Positions 11,615 through 59,995 of a DNA stretch of 64,000 nucleotides are shown here, one piece after another. A program made the translations under genes and the position numbers. Source of the DNA: Candidatus Woesearchaeota archaeon (GTDB lineage: Archaea; Nanobdellota; Nanobdellia; UBA10117; ARS21); NCBI GenBank assembly GCA_964344605.1, contig CAYFNR010000002.1, positions 2,140 to 66,139 on the forward strand, read 5' to 3'. The number at the start of each line of letters is the position of its first letter. Positions within the stretch are counted from its first letter, which is position 1. Below the pieces are notes generated by a model, which made no database searches, was not told the DNA's origin, and saw only the letters and a program-made list of their open reading frames with translations.

Positions 11615-11634
11615 CAATATTAAGCAGAATTCTT

Positions 11635-11900
11635 GGGCTAGGCTGGCGGTTTAGGGGTCCGCTTTTACTTGAAGTCCTCTAATGCAAGAGCCGAAGCTTT
11701 GGGGGCGGCATGCTTGTTTGGTGCTGTCTTGTGAAGTAGTGTCGAAGCGTTGCCTTTGGGGGCATCACTTTCATGTGAACCTGGTCAGGCGGGGAACCGA
11801 GCAGCCATAGCGTGGTTTTGATGTGCTCCAAAGTAGTGGCGTGGAGCTGTTTCTCAAGGTTAGCAGTACTGTGCTTATGTGTCCACCTCATTGCGTGCCC
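11635..11900 (+). ncRNA. ffs: signal recognition particle RNA (7S / SRP RNA); ends approximate
   Basis: GC-rich island in AT-rich genome with no credible ORF; 11780..11816 CCUGGUCAGGCGGGGAACCGAGCAGCCAUAGCGUGG closely matches the universally conserved SRP RNA domain IV / helix 8 (compare E. coli 4.5S CCAGGUCAGGUCCGGAAGGAAGCAGCCAAGGCAG) including GGAA tetraloop. Confidence 0.65.
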
Positions 11901-11904
11901 ACTT

Positions 11905-11988
11905 GCCGAGGTCGCATAATCTGGTATTGCGCTGGCTTGCTAAGCCAGTTTCCTTCGGGATGTGCGGGTTCAAATCCCGTCCTCGGCG
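11905..11988 (+). tRNA. tRNA-Ser (anticodon GCT) with long variable arm
   Basis: Acceptor GCCGAGG/CCTCGGC, anticodon stem CTGGC/GCCAG loop TTGCTAA, long variable arm TCC-TTCG-GGA, T-arm GCGGG-TTCAAAT-CCCGT, discriminator G. Confidence 0.8.
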
Positions 11989-12234
11989 TATTAATCATTG
12001 TATAACAAATTTAACTACTCACTCCATAAACGCAACCTTTAAAAACTACATATTACCGCTAGTAATTGGATATAAGTAGAAATAGAAGTCATCGTACCTC
12101 AAAAAAGGTACACAAAATATGCTCATTCTGTTTCATTTAAAATCAAGTAGATTTTAAGTTTAGAGCCCATTTGTGGGTTTTAGTGCGTTTCGTGTATTCA
12201 GTATACGATATAGTCCAAAGGAGAAATACACAAA

Positions 12235-50382: not shown

Positions 50383-51540
50383 ATGACCAAAAATTATAGA
50401 CATGACCCTGTTGCAGCAGTAATTCTTCTTACAATACTTGCTGCCTTATTCTTCTACATATTTTCGGTTCCGACCGAAGTGAGAGAAGAGCTCTTGCCAT
50501 CAACGGTAACTTACGAAAATACATGGCTCACATCTTCTCCAGGGGGAGTCCCAATCCAAAAAGCCGAAATTGATTTTAAGCTCGTAACTTTTCCAACAAC
50601 TACTGTAGACAACACTCTAAAAGCGGAACCCACTCTACTCTCAAACCAATTTTCAGTTTCATCTGGAGTATATAGTGCTGTACCACAAGCTTTCAGCTTT
50701 AACATTGATGATACTGCTGCTGTGTATGATGTCAGAGTGCCCTTGACCGTAGCCGGCAAAAGCGGCTCAGGAAGGCTGGAGGCTTCTTTAAACGGACAGA
50801 AAATATATTCCGCAAGCAATGTCATTGGAGAGCAAGCGGTAATCATAATCCCAACACATTTGTTGCAAACTGGGGCAAATTCCTTAACCTTTTCAGCAAG
50901 TTCACCAGGATTTAAGTTTTGGCAGAGCAATTCCTATGTGTTATCTAGCGCCACAATAGAGATAAGTAGATACAGTTCCAATCAGGCTTCTGTAGCGAGA
51001 CCATTTTCCTTGTCGAGCGATGAGGCAGCAAATATTGAAAGCTCCGAGCTTACTATGTTCGTCCGTAGATTGTCGACTGTGTCCACTAATTTAGAAGTAG
51101 GGTTGAATGGAGCTACTTTGTTTAGCGGAATCCCTCCTTCAACATTCTCCGTTGATGTTCCAACAAATTTGCTCAAATCTGGGCAGAATGATATAACTTT
51201 CAGTGTCGACGAGGAAGGCAAATACGAGATGAATTTCATTGTAATCCGAATACAAACTGAAACAATTAAAGGAGGGTTAGATTATTTCTTCACTATAAGC
51301 TCCTCTGATTGGAGAAGGGTACAGGGCGGAGCCTATACTTGTGAAATGCTTATTAGAAAAACCACGGGGGCCAATAGCGTAGTTGTCCAGCTAAATTCCC
51401 ATACAGGAGAGTACCATTTTTCTGCAGGAGAAGTTAAAGTTGATGTCTGCGAACAGCTCAGAGAAGGATCAAACAAGATAAGCATAACTTCTGATGAAGC
51501 GCTTGATTTGGCAGATATTAGTGTTGGAATAAAACCTTAG
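50383..51540 (+). CDS. hypothetical N-terminally anchored extracellular protein with two internal repeats
   Basis: N-term TM VAAVILLTILAALFFYIFSV; Ser/Thr-rich beta-like ectodomain; repeats LNGQKIYSASNVIGEQAVIIIPTHLLQTGANSLTFSASS / LNGATLFSGIPPSTFSVDVPTNLLKSGQNDITFSVDEEG. Confidence 0.55.
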   Translation: MTKNYRHDPVAAVILLTILAALFFYIFSVPTEVREELLPSTVTYENTWLTSSPGGVPIQKAEIDFKLVTFPTTTVDNTLKAEPTLLSNQFSVSSGVYSAVPQAFSFNIDDTAAVYDVRVPLTVAGKSGSGRLEASLNGQKIYSASNVIGEQAVIIIPTHLLQTGANSLTFSASSPGFKFWQSNSYVLSSATIEISRYSSNQASVARPFSLSSDEAANIESSELTMFVRRLSTVSTNLEVGLNGATLFSGIPPSTFSVDVPTNLLKSGQNDITFSVDEEGKYEMNFIVIRIQTETIKGGLDYFFTISSSDWRRVQGGAYTCEMLIRKTTGANSVVVQLNSHTGEYHFSAGEVKVDVCEQLREGSNKISITSDEALDLADISVGIKP

Positions 51541-51541
51541 A

Positions 51542-53296
51542 ATGGTTGATTATAGCCACCTAGGGGGAGTTGGTACAAAAACAAATGCTCTCTTAGAAGG
51601 CCACAGTCATGAAGATATACATGAAGGAGGACATGATTTTCTTAGAGATTTAGGTATTAATCATGGACCGAGGAGGGAGGCAATTCTCACGGAGGCTGAG
51701 AGAAATGTGGTAGCGGGACCAGCAGCACCTGCTGAGCCACCAGCTCAACCTCCAGCAGTGCCAGCAGGATCAGCACCTCCCCCAATAAGGATGCCACCGC
51801 CAGCAAGATCGCCACTTGGCCCAATACCTGCAGACTTAGACGCTGAGGGAGAAGGGAAAAATAAAGTTATAAAGTTCTTTGGAATGGTTGTCACCTTGGT
51901 GCTTATTTTCTTAGTTTCTAGTTTTGTATTAGGTCCAGGATGGGCTGTATTGATTGTTGGCATAGTAGCTTTCATTTTTATTTTTATATATTTTTTAGGT
52001 AAAAAGAAAGGCAAGGTTGACTGGGCAATATTTATTATTTTGCTTATTATCTTAGTTGTTGGTGGGTTGTGGGTAGGAAATAATATTGCTAAGTCCACTA
52101 CTGGCAAAGGCCTCTGGGAGTTGGGCTCTGAGGCTTTGTTTGCTATTGAATTGGGCCGTGAAGAAACAAGTCCGCAGCGCAATACCCTAGCTGCCCTTTT
52201 TAAAGGTGAGTGGGATCTAGATCAGCAAAAATGGGAGTCCAGACAGGTCCAAGATAGTTATGTCGTTCCTGAAGATGCAGGGGTTGTGTTTGAGGATATC
52301 GCTCCTTCACAGAGCAACTTTTTCTCCGACGAGATTCTTGAAGTTACGGGAGATGTTACTATAGTGAGTCTTTTTGAAGATGGGCAAGATATAGAAATAA
52401 CCACTCCCTTAGAGATTGACGTTGAGATTCAAAGATGCAAAAGTGCCTTGAGCGAAGGACTTATTGGGCGAGCATTTGATGAATTTTCAGAACTTTTCGG
52501 TGGAAGGATAGCTATGACTGACTGGTGTGGAAAGTCCTGGACATGCGAGATACCTGGAGAAGACCCAGTTAGTGACAACAAATTTGAGGTCGACAAGGCA
52601 TATAACAGGTTCTTTGCGTGTGAGCATTCAGGAATAACTACGTCAGAAAATATTATTGATTTAAATGCTAAAGTTGTTTGGGATTATACTACACAGGCTG
52701 TTTCAGGCAAGCAGGTATTTGTGGCGAGCCCAGACGCGCTGGCTCGCATAGAGGACCTTAGGACCCATTATAATATACCAAGTACAGCATTTGACCCTTG
52801 GTCTATTAGTGATGGTACAGTGAATTTTGGTGTAGGTTTTGATAAAAAATGGGAATTTTTGAGGGCAGGTTCAAAGTACCGGCTAGGAGTTAGTGTTGTT
52901 AATGATGGCAGAGGTGATGTTGTGGAGATAAATGATTTAGAAGTTAGCATACCTCACGATGAAGATATCATCATGATTTCAAGTGATAAGGAAGAGATTA
53001 GGAATAAGGCTGATATAGGAAAGGAGTCAGGACAGTTCGTTTTTGACAGGATAGATGAAGTAAATGGTACAGTCCCCGTTAAAGTCTTTAAACTCAAAGG
53101 TCTACCTCTTAATCTTAAGGATGGAAAAGAAGAGATAGAACCAGGTTTCTCCAATACTTATTATCTCAAACTAACTATAAATGAAGATTACTTGCAAGGA
53201 TCAAATTATCAAAGCTTCTTTACGAAGGCCAAGATTTCTTACGACTATGAACAAGGTAAAAGGACAAGAATAAAGATCAAACCAGAACCTTTTTGA
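51542..53296 (+). CDS. hypothetical membrane protein: His/Pro-rich cytoplasmic N-terminus, 3 TM, large extracellular domain
   Basis: HSHEDIHEGGHDF then PAAPAEPPAQPPAVPAGSAPPPIRMPPPARSPLGP; three hydrophobic helices; ~370-aa C-terminal domain with paired Cys. Confidence 0.55.
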   Translation: MVDYSHLGGVGTKTNALLEGHSHEDIHEGGHDFLRDLGINHGPRREAILTEAERNVVAGPAAPAEPPAQPPAVPAGSAPPPIRMPPPARSPLGPIPADLDAEGEGKNKVIKFFGMVVTLVLIFLVSSFVLGPGWAVLIVGIVAFIFIFIYFLGKKKGKVDWAIFIILLIILVVGGLWVGNNIAKSTTGKGLWELGSEALFAIELGREETSPQRNTLAALFKGEWDLDQQKWESRQVQDSYVVPEDAGVVFEDIAPSQSNFFSDEILEVTGDVTIVSLFEDGQDIEITTPLEIDVEIQRCKSALSEGLIGRAFDEFSELFGGRIAMTDWCGKSWTCEIPGEDPVSDNKFEVDKAYNRFFACEHSGITTSENIIDLNAKVVWDYTTQAVSGKQVFVASPDALARIEDLRTHYNIPSTAFDPWSISDGTVNFGVGFDKKWEFLRAGSKYRLGVSVVNDGRGDVVEINDLEVSIPHDEDIIMISSDKEEIRNKADIGKESGQFVFDRIDEVNGTVPVKVFKLKGLPLNLKDGKEEIEPGFSNTYYLKLTINEDYLQGSNYQSFFTKAKISYDYEQGKRTRIKIKPEPF

Positions 53297-53343
53297 CCAA
53301 AGCATAAAGTATAAAAACGAGCAACTGCTTTTCATACTTAAAC

Positions 53344-54342
53344 ATGCTGTCGTTTGATAGATTAAAATCTACTTTACTCCCTTTTTTAATTGTAGCCGTT
53401 GTTTTAGTTAGTGGATGTGTAAATCAAACGGCTGACGAAGGAGTAGTTCCTACAGGGATGGAGGGAATAGTTGTGACTTTTTTTCAAGGAGCACCGCCCT
53501 CTGTTTTGGGGGAAGGTGAGACTTTTGACGCTGGAGTGACCATTGAGAATAAAGGTGATCATGAAGTGGTTGTTGGAGATGCGGAGATATATCTTAGAGG
53601 GGTCAATCCTACAAACTTCGGATATGGGGGTGTTGGTCAGATACCAGCTAATCAGCAAGTACTTTCTAATCTAGTGGGAGCACAGTTGTTGGATAATCAA
53701 CTTATTGGTGGACAGGATGCTTTGACTTGGCCAGACCTGTGTTATCGTGTTGATTTAAATACAGATCAAGTTGTCGATTTCATAGCGCAGAGCTGCTACA
53801 AATATAAAAGTAAAGCTCGTTTTGACGGTTGCTTCAACGAAAATGCGTACAGACAAACAACGGGCACCGAGCTCTGTTCGGTTTTAGGTGATAAATTAAT
53901 TTCAAATAGTAGGGCGCCAGTCCAAATTACAAGCGTGTCCGAAAGCCCGGCCGGAGAAGGAAAGTTTAGGTTTATAGTGAAAGTTGGGAACCTAGGTACA
54001 GGTCAAGTCTATACTGAAGATTTAGGAACAGCTTGTGTTGACGCGGCAATTAGAGAACTAAATGTGGTGCACATAGATGGAATTAAAATTGGTGCAACTT
54101 CTCTTGATTTGGGAGACACAGCCACAGTTACATCTGCCACGTGGCTTGGGACGCAGAAGCCATATTTTAAGCTTGTAAATGGAGAGGGACAGTTCATGTT
54201 TACATATGCTCCATCATTTACAGCTGTGCCTATTTACATAGATCCTGTGGAAATAACTCTGAGTTATGGGTACTCTGACCAGGTAATTACCTCAACTCAG
54301 ATTTCATCTATACCTGGAGTGAACCCCCAATCTGTATGTTAA
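53344..54342 (+). CDS. hypothetical secreted protein, putative lipoprotein (lipobox LVSGC)
   Basis: Signal-like N-term ending VVLVSGCVNQT; paralogue of next gene. Confidence 0.55.
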   Translation: MLSFDRLKSTLLPFLIVAVVLVSGCVNQTADEGVVPTGMEGIVVTFFQGAPPSVLGEGETFDAGVTIENKGDHEVVVGDAEIYLRGVNPTNFGYGGVGQIPANQQVLSNLVGAQLLDNQLIGGQDALTWPDLCYRVDLNTDQVVDFIAQSCYKYKSKARFDGCFNENAYRQTTGTELCSVLGDKLISNSRAPVQITSVSESPAGEGKFRFIVKVGNLGTGQVYTEDLGTACVDAAIRELNVVHIDGIKIGATSLDLGDTATVTSATWLGTQKPYFKLVNGEGQFMFTYAPSFTAVPIYIDPVEITLSYGYSDQVITSTQISSIPGVNPQSVC

Positions 54343-54380
54343 TCCAATAAATATATATTCTAACTACGTGTACGTTCTGT

Positions 54381-55331
54381 ATGAGATTTAGGTCTTTGCT
54401 CATATTTTCTTTGATTGTCTTAGTTAGCGGATGCTTAGGACAGACTCCTGAAGAAACACTATCAACTGGACAGTTTATTGGAGGAGATAAGGGTCTTGAG
54501 CTTTCTTATGTTGAACTCCCTCCCAGAGTTTTTCAAAATACTCCATTTGAAATAGATGTAATGGCCGTTAATGAAGGTGAGACAGACATTCCTGTAGGTG
54601 TAGCTACATTCAAACTTAGCAATTCTAGAGTTTTTGGTCTGACTGAAGAAGAAGCTGTTAAGATAAATGAAGAGTCTCTTGCAAAGGCGGCTGAGTTTGG
54701 TGGCTTTGGAGGACAGACTTTCATAACCTTCGAAGTTCCAGGATATTCGGGAGGTGTTTTAAGTACGGAGTCTCCAGTTCCAATATCTATAGATGCTTGT
54801 TATCCTTATGAAACTAATGCGGTTGTAGATATATGTATTGCGCGCAGCGATTTTTCTGAAGTTTGTACTCCTTCCGAAATAAAAAATACACAAAATAGCG
54901 GATCTCCAATACATGTTTCTGAGGTTGAGCAAGTTCTTAGTTTACTAATACTCGAAAAAGTTAGAATTGGAATTATTATAAGAGTGGAAATTAAAGGGGA
55001 ACTAACAGACAGAATCTATAGCACAGCAGTAGAGGGAGTCGCTGAGGGTACTACTTGTGGTGAAAGAAACTCTCAATTTGAAAATCAGATTTCTATCCAA
55101 GATATTAGAATAGGAAGTGCAACCCCTTACACAGCTCAGGAAATAGAAAGTTCATGTGGTTCAAGTATTATAGGTTTGAATGCTGAAGGTAAGGGAAGAG
55201 TCCAGTGTAATTTCGAGATTAAAGATTATGTTTCAGGTGCAGGAGATTATGTCGAAAGAATGACAATAAAACTTGGATATCTTCACTCAACCTTGGCAAA
55301 CACAAACATAAATATAATACCTGTTGAGTAA
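54381..55331 (+). CDS. hypothetical secreted protein, putative lipoprotein (lipobox LVSGC), paralogue of 53344 gene
   Basis: N-term LIFSLIVLVSGCLGQT; shared blocks with upstream protein (..DICIARSDFSEVC vs ..FIAQSCYKYK; GSPIHVSEVEQ vs RAPVQITSVSE; KVRIGIIIRVEIKG vs KFRFIVKVGNLG). Confidence 0.55.
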   Translation: MRFRSLLIFSLIVLVSGCLGQTPEETLSTGQFIGGDKGLELSYVELPPRVFQNTPFEIDVMAVNEGETDIPVGVATFKLSNSRVFGLTEEEAVKINEESLAKAAEFGGFGGQTFITFEVPGYSGGVLSTESPVPISIDACYPYETNAVVDICIARSDFSEVCTPSEIKNTQNSGSPIHVSEVEQVLSLLILEKVRIGIIIRVEIKGELTDRIYSTAVEGVAEGTTCGERNSQFENQISIQDIRIGSATPYTAQEIESSCGSSIIGLNAEGKGRVQCNFEIKDYVSGAGDYVERMTIKLGYLHSTLANTNINIIPVE

Positions 55332-56755: not shown

Positions 56756-57547
56756 CTAAGCCACCACCTTTTGAAATCTCAGTGAACCTTTATTCTTTTC
56801 AATATATTTCCCAGCTTCTTTTAATGCCTCATTTAAATCGCTTTCTCCTCTCTTGAGGTTAGTTGATTCAAAGACAATTTGATATTTTGGAGCACCCAAG
56901 TATTTAATCTCAACTTCAGCATCAGCTTTCTTAACAACTGATTGAAGCATTTGTAGAGTTTTTTTAACAACTTCAAGACCGTTGGAATCCTGAGATTGAA
57001 GGTTCAAAATACCTCTGACTCGCGCTTTCTTCAATTTGATTCTTGCTTTTACTGCATCAACCAGTTGCGAGGAAAGTTTTTTGTCTAAATTGAGTTCTTT
57101 GATTATACTATCATTTATTACAATCTGCTCCAAGAAAGGATATATTGAACCATATTTGTCCAATATTGGATCTCCGATTTTTTTGAAAATAATCTCGTAT
57201 TTGACTTTGGAGGATTTAGATAAAGTAATTAGAAAGTCATTTGCTCGTTTCTCTTTACTCCAATTATCTTGTTTAGTTTTTGCTTGTGAAGCTCCAACTC
57301 TTCGTGTTGAAAGATTGATGTATCCTGAATTTTTATCAACGTCCAAAACTTTACAGACTGTTTTTCTGCCAGGTTTTAGAAAAGTTCTGATGTTTCGTGC
57401 CCATTTTCTGTTCATTTCAGAAGAGGTTACAGTTCCATCTATGTTTTGGAACTCATCTAACTCAAATTTCGCTGCGTGCTGCGAGACGTTTTTAACTGTA
57501 CAAATGACAAAATCATCAACTTCTGGGAAACCTTTCTTTTTATACAT
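56756..57547 (-). CDS. eif2a: translation initiation factor aIF2 alpha subunit
   Basis: N-terminal S1 domain (VICTVKNVSQHAAKFELDEF..GTVTSSEM), helical and C-terminal alpha-beta domains, 263 aa. Confidence 0.85.
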   Translation of the reverse strand: MYKKKGFPEVDDFVICTVKNVSQHAAKFELDEFQNIDGTVTSSEMNRKWARNIRTFLKPGRKTVCKVLDVDKNSGYINLSTRRVGASQAKTKQDNWSKEKRANDFLITLSKSSKVKYEIIFKKIGDPILDKYGSIYPFLEQIVINDSIIKELNLDKKLSSQLVDAVKARIKLKKARVRGILNLQSQDSNGLEVVKKTLQMLQSVVKKADAEVEIKYLGAPKYQIVFESTNLKRGESDLNEALKEAGKYIEKNKGSLRFQKVVA

Positions 57548-57723
57548 TAACCAAGGACCTCCAAGATCTTACCTTTAATCTTGATTTTTCCACCAGTTGG
57601 TTCAGCAACAACTTTACTACATACAAGGCATTTTATTGCTGTTGAAGATTTTCCAAAAATTATTTGCTCGTTTTTGCATCCTTCACACTTAACTTTGACA
57701 AATTTTGATTTTGGATTTTCCAT
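57547..57723 (-). CDS. rps27e: ribosomal protein S27e
   Basis: Hand-translated 58 aa MENPKSKFVKVKCEGCKNEQIIFGKSSTAIKCLVCSKVVAEPTGGK.. with C4 zinc finger; TAATG stop/start overlap with eif2a; missed by ORF track. Confidence 0.7.
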   Translation of the reverse strand: MENPKSKFVKVKCEGCKNEQIIFGKSSTAIKCLVCSKVVAEPTGGKIKIKGKILEVLG

Positions 57724-57724
57724 T

Positions 57725-58015
57725 TTATACTTGAGTTACTTTCTTTAGTCTGCCGTAACTTTTGACAGTAGATTTTTTACATGTGCTGCAAGTGAAAAGC
57801 AAAGTTGGGTGTGTGCTGGTTTTATATTTGTCTCCGGCTTTGGGTCTTGGAGAACCCCCATAACCTTTAGATATGCGAAACATCTGCCGAACTCCGTGCT
57901 TCAACCCGCCTTTTTTAGTTTTAGGCCTGGATTTGGTCTTCACTTGTTTGATTTGCTGGAGTGTGTGTTTCTTGCACTTCTGGCAATATGTCTTCGCTTG
58001 TTTTGGAAATTTCAT
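57725..58015 (-). CDS. rpl44e: ribosomal protein L44e
   Basis: MKFPKQAKTYCQKCKKHT.. C4 zinc ribbon (CQKC..CSTC), 96 aa. Confidence 0.8.
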   Translation of the reverse strand: MKFPKQAKTYCQKCKKHTLQQIKQVKTKSRPKTKKGGLKHGVRQMFRISKGYGGSPRPKAGDKYKTSTHPTLLFTCSTCKKSTVKSYGRLKKVTQV

Positions 58016-58685
58016 CTTTTTCTTCGTTGCTATCCTCTGATTTTACTAATTCGACTTTATTTTTGCTCATTAAAAGGTTTGCGATTCCTTCCGGAAGCTC
58101 TGCTTCCTCACTGACGGAATATGGACCATAGCTTTTTAAGTCTTCGGCTACGAAGGACTCGACTCCTTCCAAGAATCTGACTTTTACTGTCTTAATTGGT
58201 TCAGCAACGTCATCTGGTTCCAAACTCTCAACTGGTGTTGGTTCTTCTTCCTCAATTTTTGGGTCGGCGATGGAATCTTGCCCAGGTTCCAAAAGTTTGA
58301 AAAATGCGTCTCGATTTTGAGGTATTATTTGTGTTAACAGATTATAAAATTCTATTTCGTGAGTAAGCATATTTGTAGTGTCTTTAACCAAAGTTCCCCC
58401 ACGAACACTGAAAACTGCTCTGCTTATTATCTTCTTTTCACGAAATTCATATAAATCTTTGAGTGCTCTTAAGGCATTATCTATCTCTATTTGAATAACT
58501 ACTCTCTTTTGGGAGCTAAAAATCTGTGTAGACTCTTCCTGCTTGTCTAGAAGTCTTTGCTTATCTTGTAGGTATTTGCTTATCTTGCTTAAATCTTCGT
58601 TGCTTATACTCTGAAGCTCTGAGTTGAATTTTTCAGAGTGCAGCATATCATAAATATTGTCATATGTGAAGACTTCATCTGTCAT
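57921..58685 (-). CDS. GINS subunit Gins15 (Gins51)-like protein with acidic C-terminal tail
   Basis: Helical A-domain followed by B-domain motif VKVRFLEGVESFVAEDLKSYGPYSVSEEAELPEGIANLLMSKNKVELV; adjacent to primase gene as in many archaea; 3' 95 nt overlap rpl44e in another frame. Confidence 0.5.
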   Translation of the reverse strand: MTDEVFTYDNIYDMLHSEKFNSELQSISNEDLSKISKYLQDKQRLLDKQEESTQIFSSQKRVVIQIEIDNALRALKDLYEFREKKIISRAVFSVRGGTLVKDTTNMLTHEIEFYNLLTQIIPQNRDAFFKLLEPGQDSIADPKIEEEEPTPVESLEPDDVAEPIKTVKVRFLEGVESFVAEDLKSYGPYSVSEEAELPEGIANLLMSKNKVELVKSEDSNEEKDEISKTSEDILPEVQETHTPANQTSEDQIQA

Positions 58686-58741: not shown

Positions 58742-59995
58742 CTACTGCTTACTTCTAACTTTCCTTACTGCATAAGAAACAGGATTCTTATGGTCTTTAC
58801 AAGTTCCTCCAGATAGTCCGATGCTATAATAGAAGTCTCCGCAATTTGGTGGCGGGAACTTCTTATGTTGGCGTCTTTGCCAACTTAATTGGCTTCTTAC
58901 ATATCCTTCTTTAAGTGGTGGAGAATTTGTTGAGTTCCACTCTCTGACTTTTTCCTCTATTTCATCCATGGACCAGTTCATCATCCTCAAAAAGTTGATC
59001 AGAGCAAATAGGGCTCGTTTTCTTCCGTCGGGCATCCCTCCTTTTAGTATGAAATTAATACATGGCGGAAAGAACTTCTCTGATATTCTGCCCTCGATCT
59101 CCTCATACTCTTTTTTGCCAGTCTTCTCTGGACCGGTTTCGCTCCAATCCAATGACTGGATTAGTAATTGACGTCCATCATCGTCACCGATTAAATCTGA
59201 ATTAAAGAATATGTCTTTTACATCTTTTATTTTGCTTACATGCGCATCCTCTTTTTTAAATTTCAGAATTTTATCTGGCTTAATGGGTAAAGAAACAAGC
59301 CAGGTCTTTTCATGTAAACTGTATGGTGCACGTATCAAATGTCTTACAGAACTTAGCTGAATATCGACTCCACTAAGTGCAGAAAAATCAACTTCTGAGT
59401 TTTTGGAGTTCTCTTTTCCAAGTGTCTTTAATATGTTTTTAACGTCACCTTCATATCTTAACACTCTTTCTTTTATTTGCTCCTGCGTAAAATCCTTTAG
59501 ATAAGATATAATTGCTGCTGCTGCAACAGGGAACAGATCTTTGAAATCTTTTTTACCGACTTTAGATGGAAAAACTTCTCCAAGCACACCTATATGCCAT
59601 CCTCTATTCCCAGAAAATTTGACACTAGGATTTTTTATTCCGTGGAACTTGAGGGCCTCAACTATGACATCTGCGGCAATCCGTGAGTAATCAAATATAG
59701 GACAGTCGATGTCTATAACTAAGTCCCAATTATTTCGGAGGTCAGTAATCTCTCTATCAGTAATATCTGACTTCAAACTCATCGGGTTGCTCCACCTTTC
59801 TTCAGATATGTGGAAAGAGGTCGCACCTTGTCTTGCAAGAGATTTTACATCAGTAGGAAATTGAAGTATTGCCGGTCTTTTACCATATCCCCCTTGCCTA
59901 TATATATGGGCCACCTCTCTGTCTTGCCCAACTCTAACTAATTCTGTGGCGACATCTCGTCTAGAATACCAAGTAATTACTTCAGACTGCCTCAT
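58742..59995 (-). CDS. priS: DNA primase: catalytic small subunit PriS fused to PriL-like C-terminal Fe-S domain
   Basis: Catalytic motifs LVIDIDCP (DxD) and FSGNRGWHI; C-terminal region with FPPCINFIL (PriL PPC motif) and additional Cys (NCGD..TCKDH); 417 aa. Confidence 0.75.
   Translation of the reverse strand: MRQSEVITWYSRRDVATELVRVGQDREVAHIYRQGGYGKRPAILQFPTDVKSLARQGATSFHISEERWSNPMSLKSDITDREITDLRNNWDLVIDIDCPIFDYSRIAADVIVEALKFHGIKNPSVKFSGNRGWHIGVLGEVFPSKVGKKDFKDLFPVAAAAIISYLKDFTQEQIKERVLRYEGDVKNILKTLGKENSKNSEVDFSALSGVDIQLSSVRHLIRAPYSLHEKTWLVSLPIKPDKILKFKKEDAHVSKIKDVKDIFFNSDLIGDDDGRQLLIQSLDWSETGPEKTGKKEYEEIEGRISEKFFPPCINFILKGGMPDGRKRALFALINFLRMMNWSMDEIEEKVREWNSTNSPPLKEGYVRSQLSWQRRQHKKFPPPNCGDFYYSIGLSGGTCKDHKNPVSYAVRKVRSKQ

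What the first reader, a model, noticed from the sequence alone, without database searches (positions are those of the whole stretch)
58742..59995. Single-polypeptide primase: PriS catalytic domain fused to a PriL-like Fe-S C-terminal domain
The DxD (LVIDIDCP) and SGxRGxH (FSGNRGWHI) catalytic motifs are followed in the same ORF by a region with the PriL hallmark PPC motif (FPPCINFIL) and further Cys residues. A fused compact primase is a hallmark of Nanoarchaeota-like lineages. It points to the taxonomic affiliation of the contig and implies that no separate priL gene is needed.
Basis: partly seen in the sequence, partly recalled or inferred. Interest (0 to 1): 0.55.

Follow-up and report, generated by a model that had tools for sequence, protein, structure and literature searches.

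The report
Single-chain DPANN archaeal DNA primase
This gene encodes the already known one-piece DNA primase of small DPANN archaea, in which the catalytic subunit is fused to the iron-sulfur domain of the helper subunit; it is an ordinary member, except that one of the four cysteines that normally hold the iron-sulfur cluster has been deleted.

Summary
The ORF (58742-59995, minus strand, 417 aa) and all three quoted motifs are real. The N-terminal part is an archaeo-eukaryotic primase (PriS) catalytic domain. The C-terminal 110 or so residues are an archaeal-type PriL C-terminal domain: a family profile hits Pyrococcus abyssi PriL at E=1.6e-8, with the cluster cysteines aligned one to one. 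The protein belongs to a large family (2695 database hits; at least 593 GTDB species genomes, nearly all labelled Woesearchaeota, Pacearchaeota, Nanoarchaeota or another DPANN group). The fusion is well known: Iyer 2005, Raymann 2014 and Dombrowski 2020 describe it, and the N. equitans enzyme NEQ395 was characterised biochemically in 2023. The gene lies in a PolX-primase-Gins51-L44e-S27e-aIF2alpha cluster, the usual chromosomal priS neighbourhood, so it is the cell's replicative primase. One detail differs. The family consensus has four cluster cysteines, but this protein and its four closest relatives have three. A 2-residue deletion removes the third (NEQ395 C376), and a clade-specific His402 sits three residues after the fourth. 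In other lineages that lack the third Cys, that position holds Cys. About 17% of family representatives have lost nearly all four cysteines. Whether this protein still binds a cluster was not determined.

The parts
58742..59995 (-). Complete gene for the 417-aa monomeric (PriS-PriL-CTD fusion) primase, stop codon included
   Evidence: ORF; 100% identical protein P0001 found on 6 public contigs; full-length family alignment
59231..59995 (-). N-terminal AEP/PriS catalytic domain, about residues 1-255. It contains H62, D95/D97 (DxD), S128-G129-x-x-G132-x-H134, D211 and R218-H219-x-x-R222. No zinc-binding motif is present.
   Evidence: Pfam PF01896 on residues 107-239; invariant columns; Foldseek hits to human, Pyrococcus and yeast PriS and to LigD/Prim-PolC polymerase domains, E about 1e-8; pLDDT above 90; residue roles taken from the NEQ395 mutants in PMC10250227
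59081..59230 (-). Inter-domain linker, about residues 256-305: helix 275-287 followed by a flexible stretch (291-296, pLDDT below 50)
   Evidence: AlphaFold2 model. It corresponds to the NEQ395 linker helix plus protease-sensitive loop, whose length sets primer length (PMC10250227).
58745..59080 (-). PriL-type C-terminal helical domain, about residues 306-417. It contains FPPC312, D323-G-R325-K-R327, F330, W353-N354, PPPNC385, C399 and H402-K-N-P.
   Evidence: Profile hit to P. abyssi PriL 9f26_B, E=1.6e-8, two stretches; NCBIfam PriL models; PF04104 just below cutoff here but above it in relatives P0056 and P0132 and precomputed for many others; all-helical model, pLDDT 83.5
58787..58816 (-). 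Site of the 2-residue deletion that removes the third cluster cysteine, followed by C399 and the clade-specific H402 (residues 394-403, LSGGTCKDHK)
   Evidence: Family alignments
57921..58685 (-). Gins51 gene 56 nt downstream, same strand; probable operon partner
   Evidence: Pfam PF22090 Gins51_C, E=5e-9; Gins51 lies downstream on the same strand in 18 of 80 related genomes, immediately downstream in 13 of the 73 loci with enough flank, and in L086 and L088
60028..61752 (-). PolX-PHP DNA polymerase gene 32 nt upstream, same strand
   Evidence: Pfam HHH_8, DNA_pol_B_palm, DNA_pol_B_thumb and PHP; upstream neighbour in some relatives
56756..58015 (-). L44e, S27e and aIF2-alpha genes, which complete the conserved replication-translation cluster
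   Evidence: Pfam Ribosomal_L44; S27e and EIF_2_alpha from the precomputed gene calls; cluster described in PMC2643942

Best explanation
This is the replicative DNA primase of a DPANN archaeon of the Woesearchaeota/Pacearchaeota type. It is a single 417-aa chain orthologous to Nanoarchaeum equitans NEQ395. Shown here: the domain make-up, family membership, conserved residues and gene neighbourhood. Inferred from NEQ395 biochemistry and general knowledge of archaeo-eukaryotic primases: the N-terminal PriS domain binds the catalytic metal through D95, D97 and D211, and the elongating NTP through H62, S128, H134, H219 and R222. The C-terminal PriL-type helical domain is tethered by a helix and a flexible loop. 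It folds back over the active site and holds the initiating nucleotide or the 5'-triphosphate end of the primer with R325 and R327, and the primer-template junction with F330. That makes dinucleotide formation possible, and the tether length limits primer length. No PriL N-terminal domain or separate PriL is needed, because the covalent link replaces the PriS-PriL interface. Co-transcription with Gins51 suggests coupling to the MCM-GINS helicase. Cofactor status is inferred and uncertain. The canonical [4Fe-4S] site has lost its third cysteine through a 2-residue deletion. C312, C385 and C399 remain, and H402 (a C399-x-x-H402 motif) is the likeliest replacement ligand. My estimate is about 0.55 that some cluster is retained and about 0.45 that His402 is the fourth ligand. 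Priming should work either way, because the equivalent NEQ395 mutant C376A lost its cluster and still primed.
For: Identity and architecture; CTD profile to P. abyssi PriL, E=1.6e-8, with the Cys motifs aligned; catalytic-domain fold hits; confident two-domain model with a flexible linker. Family: 2695 hits; at least 593 GTDB genomes, nearly all labelled as DPANN lineages; both domains in one ORF in 80 of 80; 401 representatives at E<=1e-30. Invariant residues H62, D95, D97, S128, G129, G132, H134, D211, R218, H219, R222, D323, G324, K326 and R327 correspond by motif and spacing to NEQ395 H58, D87/D89, S119, H125, H202, R205, R301, R303 and F306, which mutagenesis showed are needed for polymerisation or for initiation (PMC10250227). 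Chromosomal replicative role: the PolX-primase-Gins51-L44e-S27e-aIF2alpha order matches the PriS-Gins15-LSIN supercluster of PMC2643942 and recurs in 18 of 80 related genomes. Cluster site: four Cys in 183 of 200 members, but three in the query and in P0002-P0005. His at position 402 occurs only in this Cys3-less clade (5 of 5), and 3 of the other 5 Cys3-less sequences have Cys there. Two other representatives have His in place of Cys4. C312, C385, C399 and H402 are all kept across five proteins that are only 64-70% identical.
Against: No biochemical data exist for this protein. In NEQ395, mutating any single Cys, including C376, abolished the cluster in vitro (PMC10250227), so a three-Cys site may simply be empty. 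The tools do not expose model coordinates, so I could not measure whether His402 lies within ligand distance of the three Cys. Two Cys3-less relatives (P0051, L065) have neither His nor Cys at position 402. Foldseek with the CTD alone gave no significant PDB hit: yeast PriL Fe-S domain ranked first at E=2.8 and PriX had TMt 0.54. The fold assignment of the CTD therefore rests on sequence profiles. PF04104 is just below its Pfam cutoff for this sequence. Absence of a separate priL was checked in 64 kb only.
Confidence: 0.9

Rival explanations
1. Same enzyme, but the C-terminal domain no longer binds any iron-sulfur cluster. The clade would be an intermediate on the path to the fully cysteine-free state seen in other lineages, and His402 would be incidental.
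For: NEQ395 C376A, the equivalent of the missing Cys, is colourless yet fully active (PMC10250227). 25 of 150 family representatives have at most one of the four Cys. P0022 has lost all four and still sits in the same syntenic slot as the query. So the cluster is dispensable in this family. Partial states exist (P0074 and P0085 with two Cys, P0146 with one).
Against: The three remaining Cys and His402 are strictly conserved across five proteins only 64-70% identical, whereas most cluster-less lineages have replaced all four Cys. The same position 402 carries Cys in three other Cys3-less sequences, which looks like ligand replacement and not decay.
Confidence: 0.4
2. A primase-polymerase from a mobile element (PolpTN2-like, pRN1-like or PriCT-containing) that happens to lie in the chromosome, and not the cell's replicative primase.
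For: Fused PriS-PriL-like enzymes exist on archaeal plasmids (PMC3973330). There are weak Pfam matches to PriCT_1 (E=0.08) and LigD_Prim-Pol (E=0.008). A 2026 preprint proposes that the whole DPANN family originally came from a mobile element.
Against: The surroundings are housekeeping genes: RFC-S, RFC-L, FtsZ, SRP54, FtsY, Kae1, tRNAs, ribosomal proteins. I saw no integrase or other mobile-element gene among the ORFs examined. The gene occupies the conserved priS position next to Gins51 and L44e/S27e/aIF2alpha. The family is present in at least 593 DPANN species genomes. Raymann 2014 found no sequence similarity between PolpTN2 and the DPANN primases.
Confidence: 0.03
3. An ordinary PriS whose C-terminal extension is PriS's own C-terminal domain, with a separate PriL encoded elsewhere.
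For: Only 64 kb of the genome is visible, and PF04104 is below its cutoff for this sequence.
Against: The CTD profile matches P. abyssi PriL residues 218-255 and 334-370, the Fe-S domain, and not any PriS chain. NCBIfam PriL models align to residues 296-415. Relatives score above the PF04104 cutoff. The literature reports only the fused form in these lineages (PMC7414124).
Confidence: 0.02

Closest known systems
NEQ395, the monomeric primase of Nanoarchaeum equitans (Iyer et al. 2005; biochemistry in PMC10250227, 2023)
   Same: Single chain of about 400 aa; PriS catalytic domain, then a helical linker, then a PriL-CTD; no PriL N-terminal domain. The catalytic and initiation residues are the same by motif and spacing: H58/H62, D87-D89/D95-D97, S119/S128, H125/H134, H202/H219, R205/R222, R301/R325, R303/R327, F306/F330. 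The Cys spacing is of the same type (C-x74-C-x11-C-x7-C in NEQ395).
   Different: The query lacks the equivalent of C376, removed by a 2-residue deletion, and has His402 three residues after the last Cys. I did not retrieve the NEQ395 sequence, so the residue mapping uses the paper's numbering and was not aligned directly. The query comes from a mesophile-like Woese/Pacearchaeota lineage at 38% GC, not from a hyperthermophile.
Monomeric primases of DPANN cluster 2 / 'Nanostetteria' (Raymann 2014 PMC3914693; Dombrowski 2020 PMC7414124; preprint 10.64898/2026.06.17.729505)
   Same: Full-length homology, with 41-67% identity to the 119 other listed hits; same domain order in 80 of 80 genomes.
   Different: The closest GTDB species representative is only about 50% identical. 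The query's own five-member clade (64-70% identity) has the three-Cys plus His pattern, against four Cys in about 90% of the 200 sampled members.
Canonical heterodimeric archaeal primase PriS/PriL (for example P. abyssi 9f26, P. furiosus 1g71, S. solfataricus 1zt2)
   Same: AEP catalytic fold and motifs. The CTD motifs FPPC, PPNC and C-x-PD-xx-C-xx-h-KNP are shared with P. abyssi PriL.
   Different: There is no PriL N-terminal (PriS-binding) domain. There is no zinc-binding motif in the catalytic domain, whose only Cys is C98. One polypeptide replaces two.
Cluster-free PriL-CTD relatives: PriX of Sulfolobus (4wyh; PMC5700102), and the helix-bundle domains of pRN1 and PolpTN2 primases
   Same: A helical initiation domain that works without a [4Fe-4S] cluster. 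PriX ranks fourth in the Foldseek search with the CTD model, though not significantly (TMt 0.54).
   Different: The query keeps three of the four ligand Cys and the PriL sequence motifs. Those proteins lack them altogether, and some are encoded on mobile elements.

Membership tests
DPANN monomeric primase (NEQ395 family) | PriS catalytic domain and PriL C-terminal domain in one ORF, in that order, without a PriL N-terminal domain | tested here: met
   two-domain model
DPANN monomeric primase (NEQ395 family) | Full-length sequence homology to the family in DPANN genomes | tested here: met
   E down to 1e-193; at least 593 genomes
DPANN monomeric primase (NEQ395 family) | AEP catalytic residues (DxD, SGxxGxH, hD, plus the His/Arg that bind the elongating NTP) | tested here: met
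   D95, D97, S128, G129, G132, H134, D211, H62, H219 and R222 are invariant in A1; roles from PMC10250227
DPANN monomeric primase (NEQ395 family) | Initiation residues of the PriL domain (NEQ395 R301, R303, F306) | tested here: met
   R325, R327 and F330 lie in the DGRKRxLF motif; K326 and R327 invariant, F330 at 90% or more. Mapping is by motif and spacing, not by direct alignment to NEQ395.
DPANN monomeric primase (NEQ395 family) | Four cysteine ligands of the [4Fe-4S] cluster (NEQ395 C289, C364, C376, C384) | tested here: not met
   Only C312, C385 and C399 are present; the C376 equivalent is deleted. About 10% of 200 sampled members and 21% of 150 representatives also deviate, so this feature is typical of the family but not universal.
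DPANN monomeric primase (NEQ395 family) | Active as a monomer; no separate PriS or PriL in the genome | tested here: inconclusive
   No second PriS or PriL-CTD in any frame of the 64-kb window or among the 20 ORFs scanned with Pfam. The whole genome is not available, and activity cannot be tested here.
Canonical PriL (PF04104) | Pfam gathering score reached; N-terminal PriS-binding domain present | tested here: not met
   19.0 bits against a cutoff of 22.4, and only model positions 86-188 of 266 are matched. The region before residue 286 is PriS plus linker.
Canonical archaeal PriS | Zinc-binding motif in the catalytic subunit | tested here: not met
   The only Cys in residues 1-300 is C98. 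Some relatives carry a Zn-ribbon insert (P0056), but the query does not.
Mobile-element primase-polymerases with PriCT or helix-bundle domains | PriCT-1/PriCT-2 domain, or a mobile-element gene context | tested here: not met
   PriCT_1 E=0.08, 13 bits against a cutoff of 21.1; housekeeping context

The most novel reading that the evidence does not exclude
In this clade the primase [4Fe-4S] cluster is held by three cysteines and His402, a natural ligand swap (Cys3 deleted, Ile to His at Cys4+3). This would be one instance of a wider, apparently undescribed pattern in DPANN monomeric primases. Ligands are swapped repeatedly: Cys at position 402 with or without Cys3, and His in place of Cys4. In about one in six family representatives the cluster ligands are lost altogether, including in an orthologue at the same chromosomal position. 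That would be a natural experiment showing that the primase cluster is dispensable and possibly tunable in living cells.
Probability: 0.4. Interest if true: 0.55.

Novelty: new member of a known kind. Interest (0 to 1): 0.3.

Why it matters
It is useful for placing the contig among the DPANN lineages that carry the fused primase (DPANN cluster 2 plus Undinarchaeota, called 'Nanostetteria' in a 2026 preprint), but it is not new. The part that might matter is the cofactor site. The role of the [4Fe-4S] cluster in archaeal and eukaryotic primases is a long-running dispute between a structural role and a redox switch. In vitro work on NEQ395 and on Sulfolobus PriSLX showed that priming does not need the cluster. 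The sequences gathered here suggest that nature has run the same experiment many times in DPANN. Some chromosomal, syntenic primases have no ligand cysteines at all, and others, including this one, have altered ligand sets. I found no paper describing this in the library searched, though that does not prove it is unreported. These proteins are small monomers and would be easy to express and compare.

Tried and rejected
1. Foldseek of the full-length model against the PDB returned only catalytic-domain hits. It says nothing about the CTD.
2. Foldseek of a CTD-only model against the PDB gave no significant hit: best was 6du0, the yeast PriL Fe-S domain, at E=2.8, and PriX had TMt 0.54. I treat this as suggestive only.
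4. Model coordinates are not exposed, so the Cys-to-His402 distances could not be measured.
5. phmmer of the single protein against PDB sequences gave only marginal PriS hits (E=0.02). The profile search was needed.
6. NEQ395 itself was not among the 267 proteins retrieved, so there is no direct pairwise alignment.
7. The listing of cluster members returned no lineage names for the query clade or for the Cys-less variants.
8. Iterated profiles did not extend Gins51 detection beyond 18 of 80 loci. The synteny is therefore a feature of a subclade, or Gins is too divergent to detect elsewhere.
9. The ideas that the gene is mobile-element-borne, or that the CTD is PriS's own C-terminal domain, were considered and rejected (see the rival explanations).
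10. A sequencing artefact as the cause of the missing Cys was rejected. The identical protein occurs on 6 contigs from several assemblies, and four relatives at 64-70% identity share the deletion.

Full report
OBSERVATION. The window contains an ATG-started ORF at 58742..59995 on the minus strand, 417 aa. Pfam places a DNA_primase_S domain on residues 107-239 at 29.3 bits, above its 26.8 cutoff. It gives a sub-threshold DNA_primase_lrg match on residues 286-385 (19.0 bits against 22.4). NCBIfam PriL models align residues 296-415 to the last third of PriL. The one correction is that the C-terminal domain holds three cysteines (C312, C385, C399), not four.

WHAT IT IS. A search of the 5.8-billion-protein collection found 2695 relatives. 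The best 120 are mostly full-length proteins of about 415-450 aa, and the few that carry a source name are Woesearchaeota, DPANN or Nanoarchaeia; many have precomputed PF01896 plus PF04104 hits. A scan of GTDB species genomes found at least 593 genomes encoding a relative. The 80 loci kept are almost all labelled Woesearchaeota, Pacearchaeota, Nanoarchaeota, Nanoarchaeia, Parvarchaeota or Aenigmatarchaeota, with a few evident mislabels such as 'Methanosarcinales' and 'Omnitrophica'. In all 80, both domains lie in one reading frame. The closest species representative is only about 50% identical, so the window comes from a lineage without a close reference genome. A profile search of 1.84 billion 50%-identity representatives found 401 at E<=1e-30.

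A profile of the C-terminal 148 residues (alignment A2) hits Pyrococcus abyssi PriL (9f26_B) at E=1.6e-8 in two stretches. FPPCiK..lkG matches FPPCVKNALKG. vPPpNC..(x)..vCkPDelCkkiKNPvsY matches [31 protein letters not shown]. The four family-conserved cysteines therefore align one to one with the cysteines of an archaeal PriL Fe-S domain.

AlphaFold2 with 60 homologues gives a confident model (mean pLDDT 90.5). It shows an alpha/beta N-terminal domain, a helix at 275-287, a disordered stretch at 291-296 and an all-helical C-terminal domain. Foldseek of the whole model recovers human, yeast and Pyrococcus PriS and bacterial LigD/Prim-PolC polymerase domains at E about 1e-8. A CTD-only model (pLDDT 83.5) gave no significant PDB match, although the yeast PriL Fe-S domain ranks first and PriX fourth. 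The more sensitive libraries were unavailable.

CONTEXT. On the minus strand the order is PolX-PHP (61752-60028), primase (59995-58742), Gins51 (58685-57921), L44e (58015-57725), S27e, aIF2-alpha and PAC2, with gaps of 32 and 56 nt around the primase. This is the PriS-Gins15 plus L44E-S27E-aIF2alpha part of the PPsG-LSIN supercluster described across Archaea (PMC2643942). The same arrangement occurs in 18 of the 80 related genomes, always downstream and on the same strand, and on contigs of the relatives P0005 and P0022. The rest of the window is housekeeping: RFC small and large subunits, a DEAD-box helicase, FtsZ, SRP54, FtsY, Kae1, deoxyhypusine synthase, a TGS-domain GTPase, an archaeal SRP RNA and five tRNAs. 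No second PriS-like or PriL-CTD-like sequence exists in any frame of the window. The gene is therefore the chromosomal replicative primase and not a mobile-element enzyme.

HOW IT WORKS (inferred from NEQ395). The N. equitans orthologue NEQ395 (393 aa) has been characterised (PMC10250227).
- It is a monomer that is brown from a [4Fe-4S] cluster.
- It needs its PriL domain for de novo priming but not for extension: the 1-281 truncation extends but does not prime.
- H58, D87/D89, S119, H125, H202 and R205 are needed for polymerisation.
- R301, R303 and F306 are needed for initiation.
- The two domains do not complement each other in trans.
- Shortening the linker gives aborted short primers.

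By motif and spacing the query has all the equivalent residues: H62, D95/D97, S128, H134, H219, R222, R325, R327 and F330. Most of these are invariant in the family alignment. The likely mechanism is that the tethered PriL-type domain delivers the initiating nucleotide to the PriS active site, and the linker sets the primer length.

THE CLUSTER SITE. NEQ395 ligates its cluster with C289, C364, C376 and C384. In 200 family members (120 database hits plus 80 genome loci), 183 have the four equivalent cysteines. The query and its four nearest relatives (P0002-P0005, 64-70% identical to one another) read IG[LV]-[SP]xGTC-K[DN]-H-[KN]NP where the consensus reads IGVCxPDxxCxKIKNP. A 2-residue deletion has removed the third Cys (the C376 equivalent), and the hydrophobic residue three positions after the fourth Cys has become His402.

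His at that position occurs only in this clade. Cys occurs there in 10 of the 200 members. Seven of those also keep Cys3. The other three have lost Cys3 (P0092, L032, L057), so they again have four potential ligands. Among the 150 best 50%-identity representatives, two (P0138, P0163) have His in place of the fourth Cys, and 25 have at most one of the four Cys, 21 of them none (PPC to PPA/S/T, PPNC to PPNY/F). One all-Cys-lost protein, P0022, lies in the same CorA-HisRS...primase-Gins51-L44e-aIF2alpha-PAC2 neighbourhood as the query. It is therefore an orthologous chromosomal primase without cluster ligands.

In NEQ395, each single Cys-to-Ala mutant lost the cluster yet primed normally, and C376A primed somewhat better. 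The query enzyme is therefore expected to prime whether or not it binds a cluster. The strict conservation of C312, C385, C399 and H402 across a 64-70%-identical clade, together with the recurrent use of position 402 for a ligand-type residue, makes a three-Cys plus one-His cluster a reasonable hypothesis. I put it at about 0.45. The alternative of an empty site is about equally likely.

COMPARISON WITH WHAT IS KNOWN. The fusion was noted in N. equitans by Iyer et al. 2005 (as cited in PMC3914693). Raymann et al. 2014 extended it to Parvarchaeota and Nanohaloarchaeota. Dombrowski et al. 2020 showed it to be a shared derived trait of Undinarchaeota plus DPANN cluster 2. A 2026 preprint uses it to define a clade named 'Nanostetteria'. 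The window's gene is a new, fairly divergent member of this known kind. None of the papers I retrieved mentions natural loss or swapping of the cluster ligands in this family, though the library is not exhaustive. The 2026 preprint proposes that the family derives from a mobile-element primase. The position of the gene in the ancestral priS slot in this clade fits at least as well with in-situ evolution from the resident priS, but the synteny is seen in only about a quarter of the sampled genomes.

VERDICT. The fusion itself is already known, so interest is low to moderate (0.3). The residual interest lies in the altered cluster-ligand set and in the family-wide pattern of ligand loss.

Noticed in passing
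Relatives P0006, P0022, P0026; 25 of the 150 representatives (e.g. P0189, P0230, P0172, P0248); locus L086 6001-7263: About 17% of the 50%-identity representatives of the DPANN monomeric primase family have lost all or nearly all four [4Fe-4S] ligand cysteines (PPC to PPA/S/T, PPNC to PPNY/F). One such protein (P0022) is in the same chromosomal neighbourhood as the query, so it is the orthologous replicative primase. I found no paper describing this.
   Followed up: partly
Relatives P0127, P0132, P0135, P0224, P0263, P0264 (880-1019 aa): Insertions of 390-520 aa interrupt the primase at three sites next to catalytic motifs (profile positions about 92, 126 and 230). P0132 matches Pfam Intein_splicing and LAGLIDADG_3, so these are probably inteins. 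The site after DID precedes the conserved Cys98, which could act as the +1 nucleophile.
   Followed up: partly
window 57725-58015 (-) versus 57921-58685 (-): The L44e ORF (96 aa, Pfam Ribosomal_L44, E=2.7e-13) overlaps the 3' end of the Gins51 ORF by 95 nt in another frame. It was not called in the public gene calls for the identical contig. Either the acidic tail of Gins51 truly overlaps it, or L44e starts further downstream.
   Followed up: partly
window 11631-11904 (+) and 11904-11989 (+): The archaeal SRP RNA (Rfam RF01857, 128 bits) is directly followed, with no spacer, by tRNA-Ser(GCT). This suggests a shared transcript processed at the tRNA 5' end.
   Followed up: no
window 50383-55331 (+): Four consecutive same-strand ORFs (385, 584, 332 and 316 aa) have essentially no Pfam match; the only hit is a short CBM-like stretch in the first. 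They are conserved next to the UDG gene on the contig of relative P0005 (L088).
   Followed up: no
L086 4711-6004: In the genome with the Cys-less primase P0022, the PolX gene upstream of the primase appears broken into small ORFs of 135, 159 and 114 aa, with only a DNA_pol_B_thumb hit. This may be a decaying PolX.
   Followed up: no
Relatives P0056, P0224 and other members of about 490-550 aa: Many family members carry an insert of about 60-80 aa before catalytic motif III (profile position about 200). In P0056 it matches a zinc-ribbon model, and the P0224 insert contains two CxxC pairs. The query has no such insert and no zinc motif.
   Followed up: partly
L016, L018, L019, L045 and other loci: Several public MAGs that carry this DPANN-specific primase are labelled 'uncultured Methanosarcinales' or 'Candidatus Omnitrophica bacterium'. 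These are probably mislabelled or contaminated bins, as the 2026 preprint also remarks.
   Followed up: no
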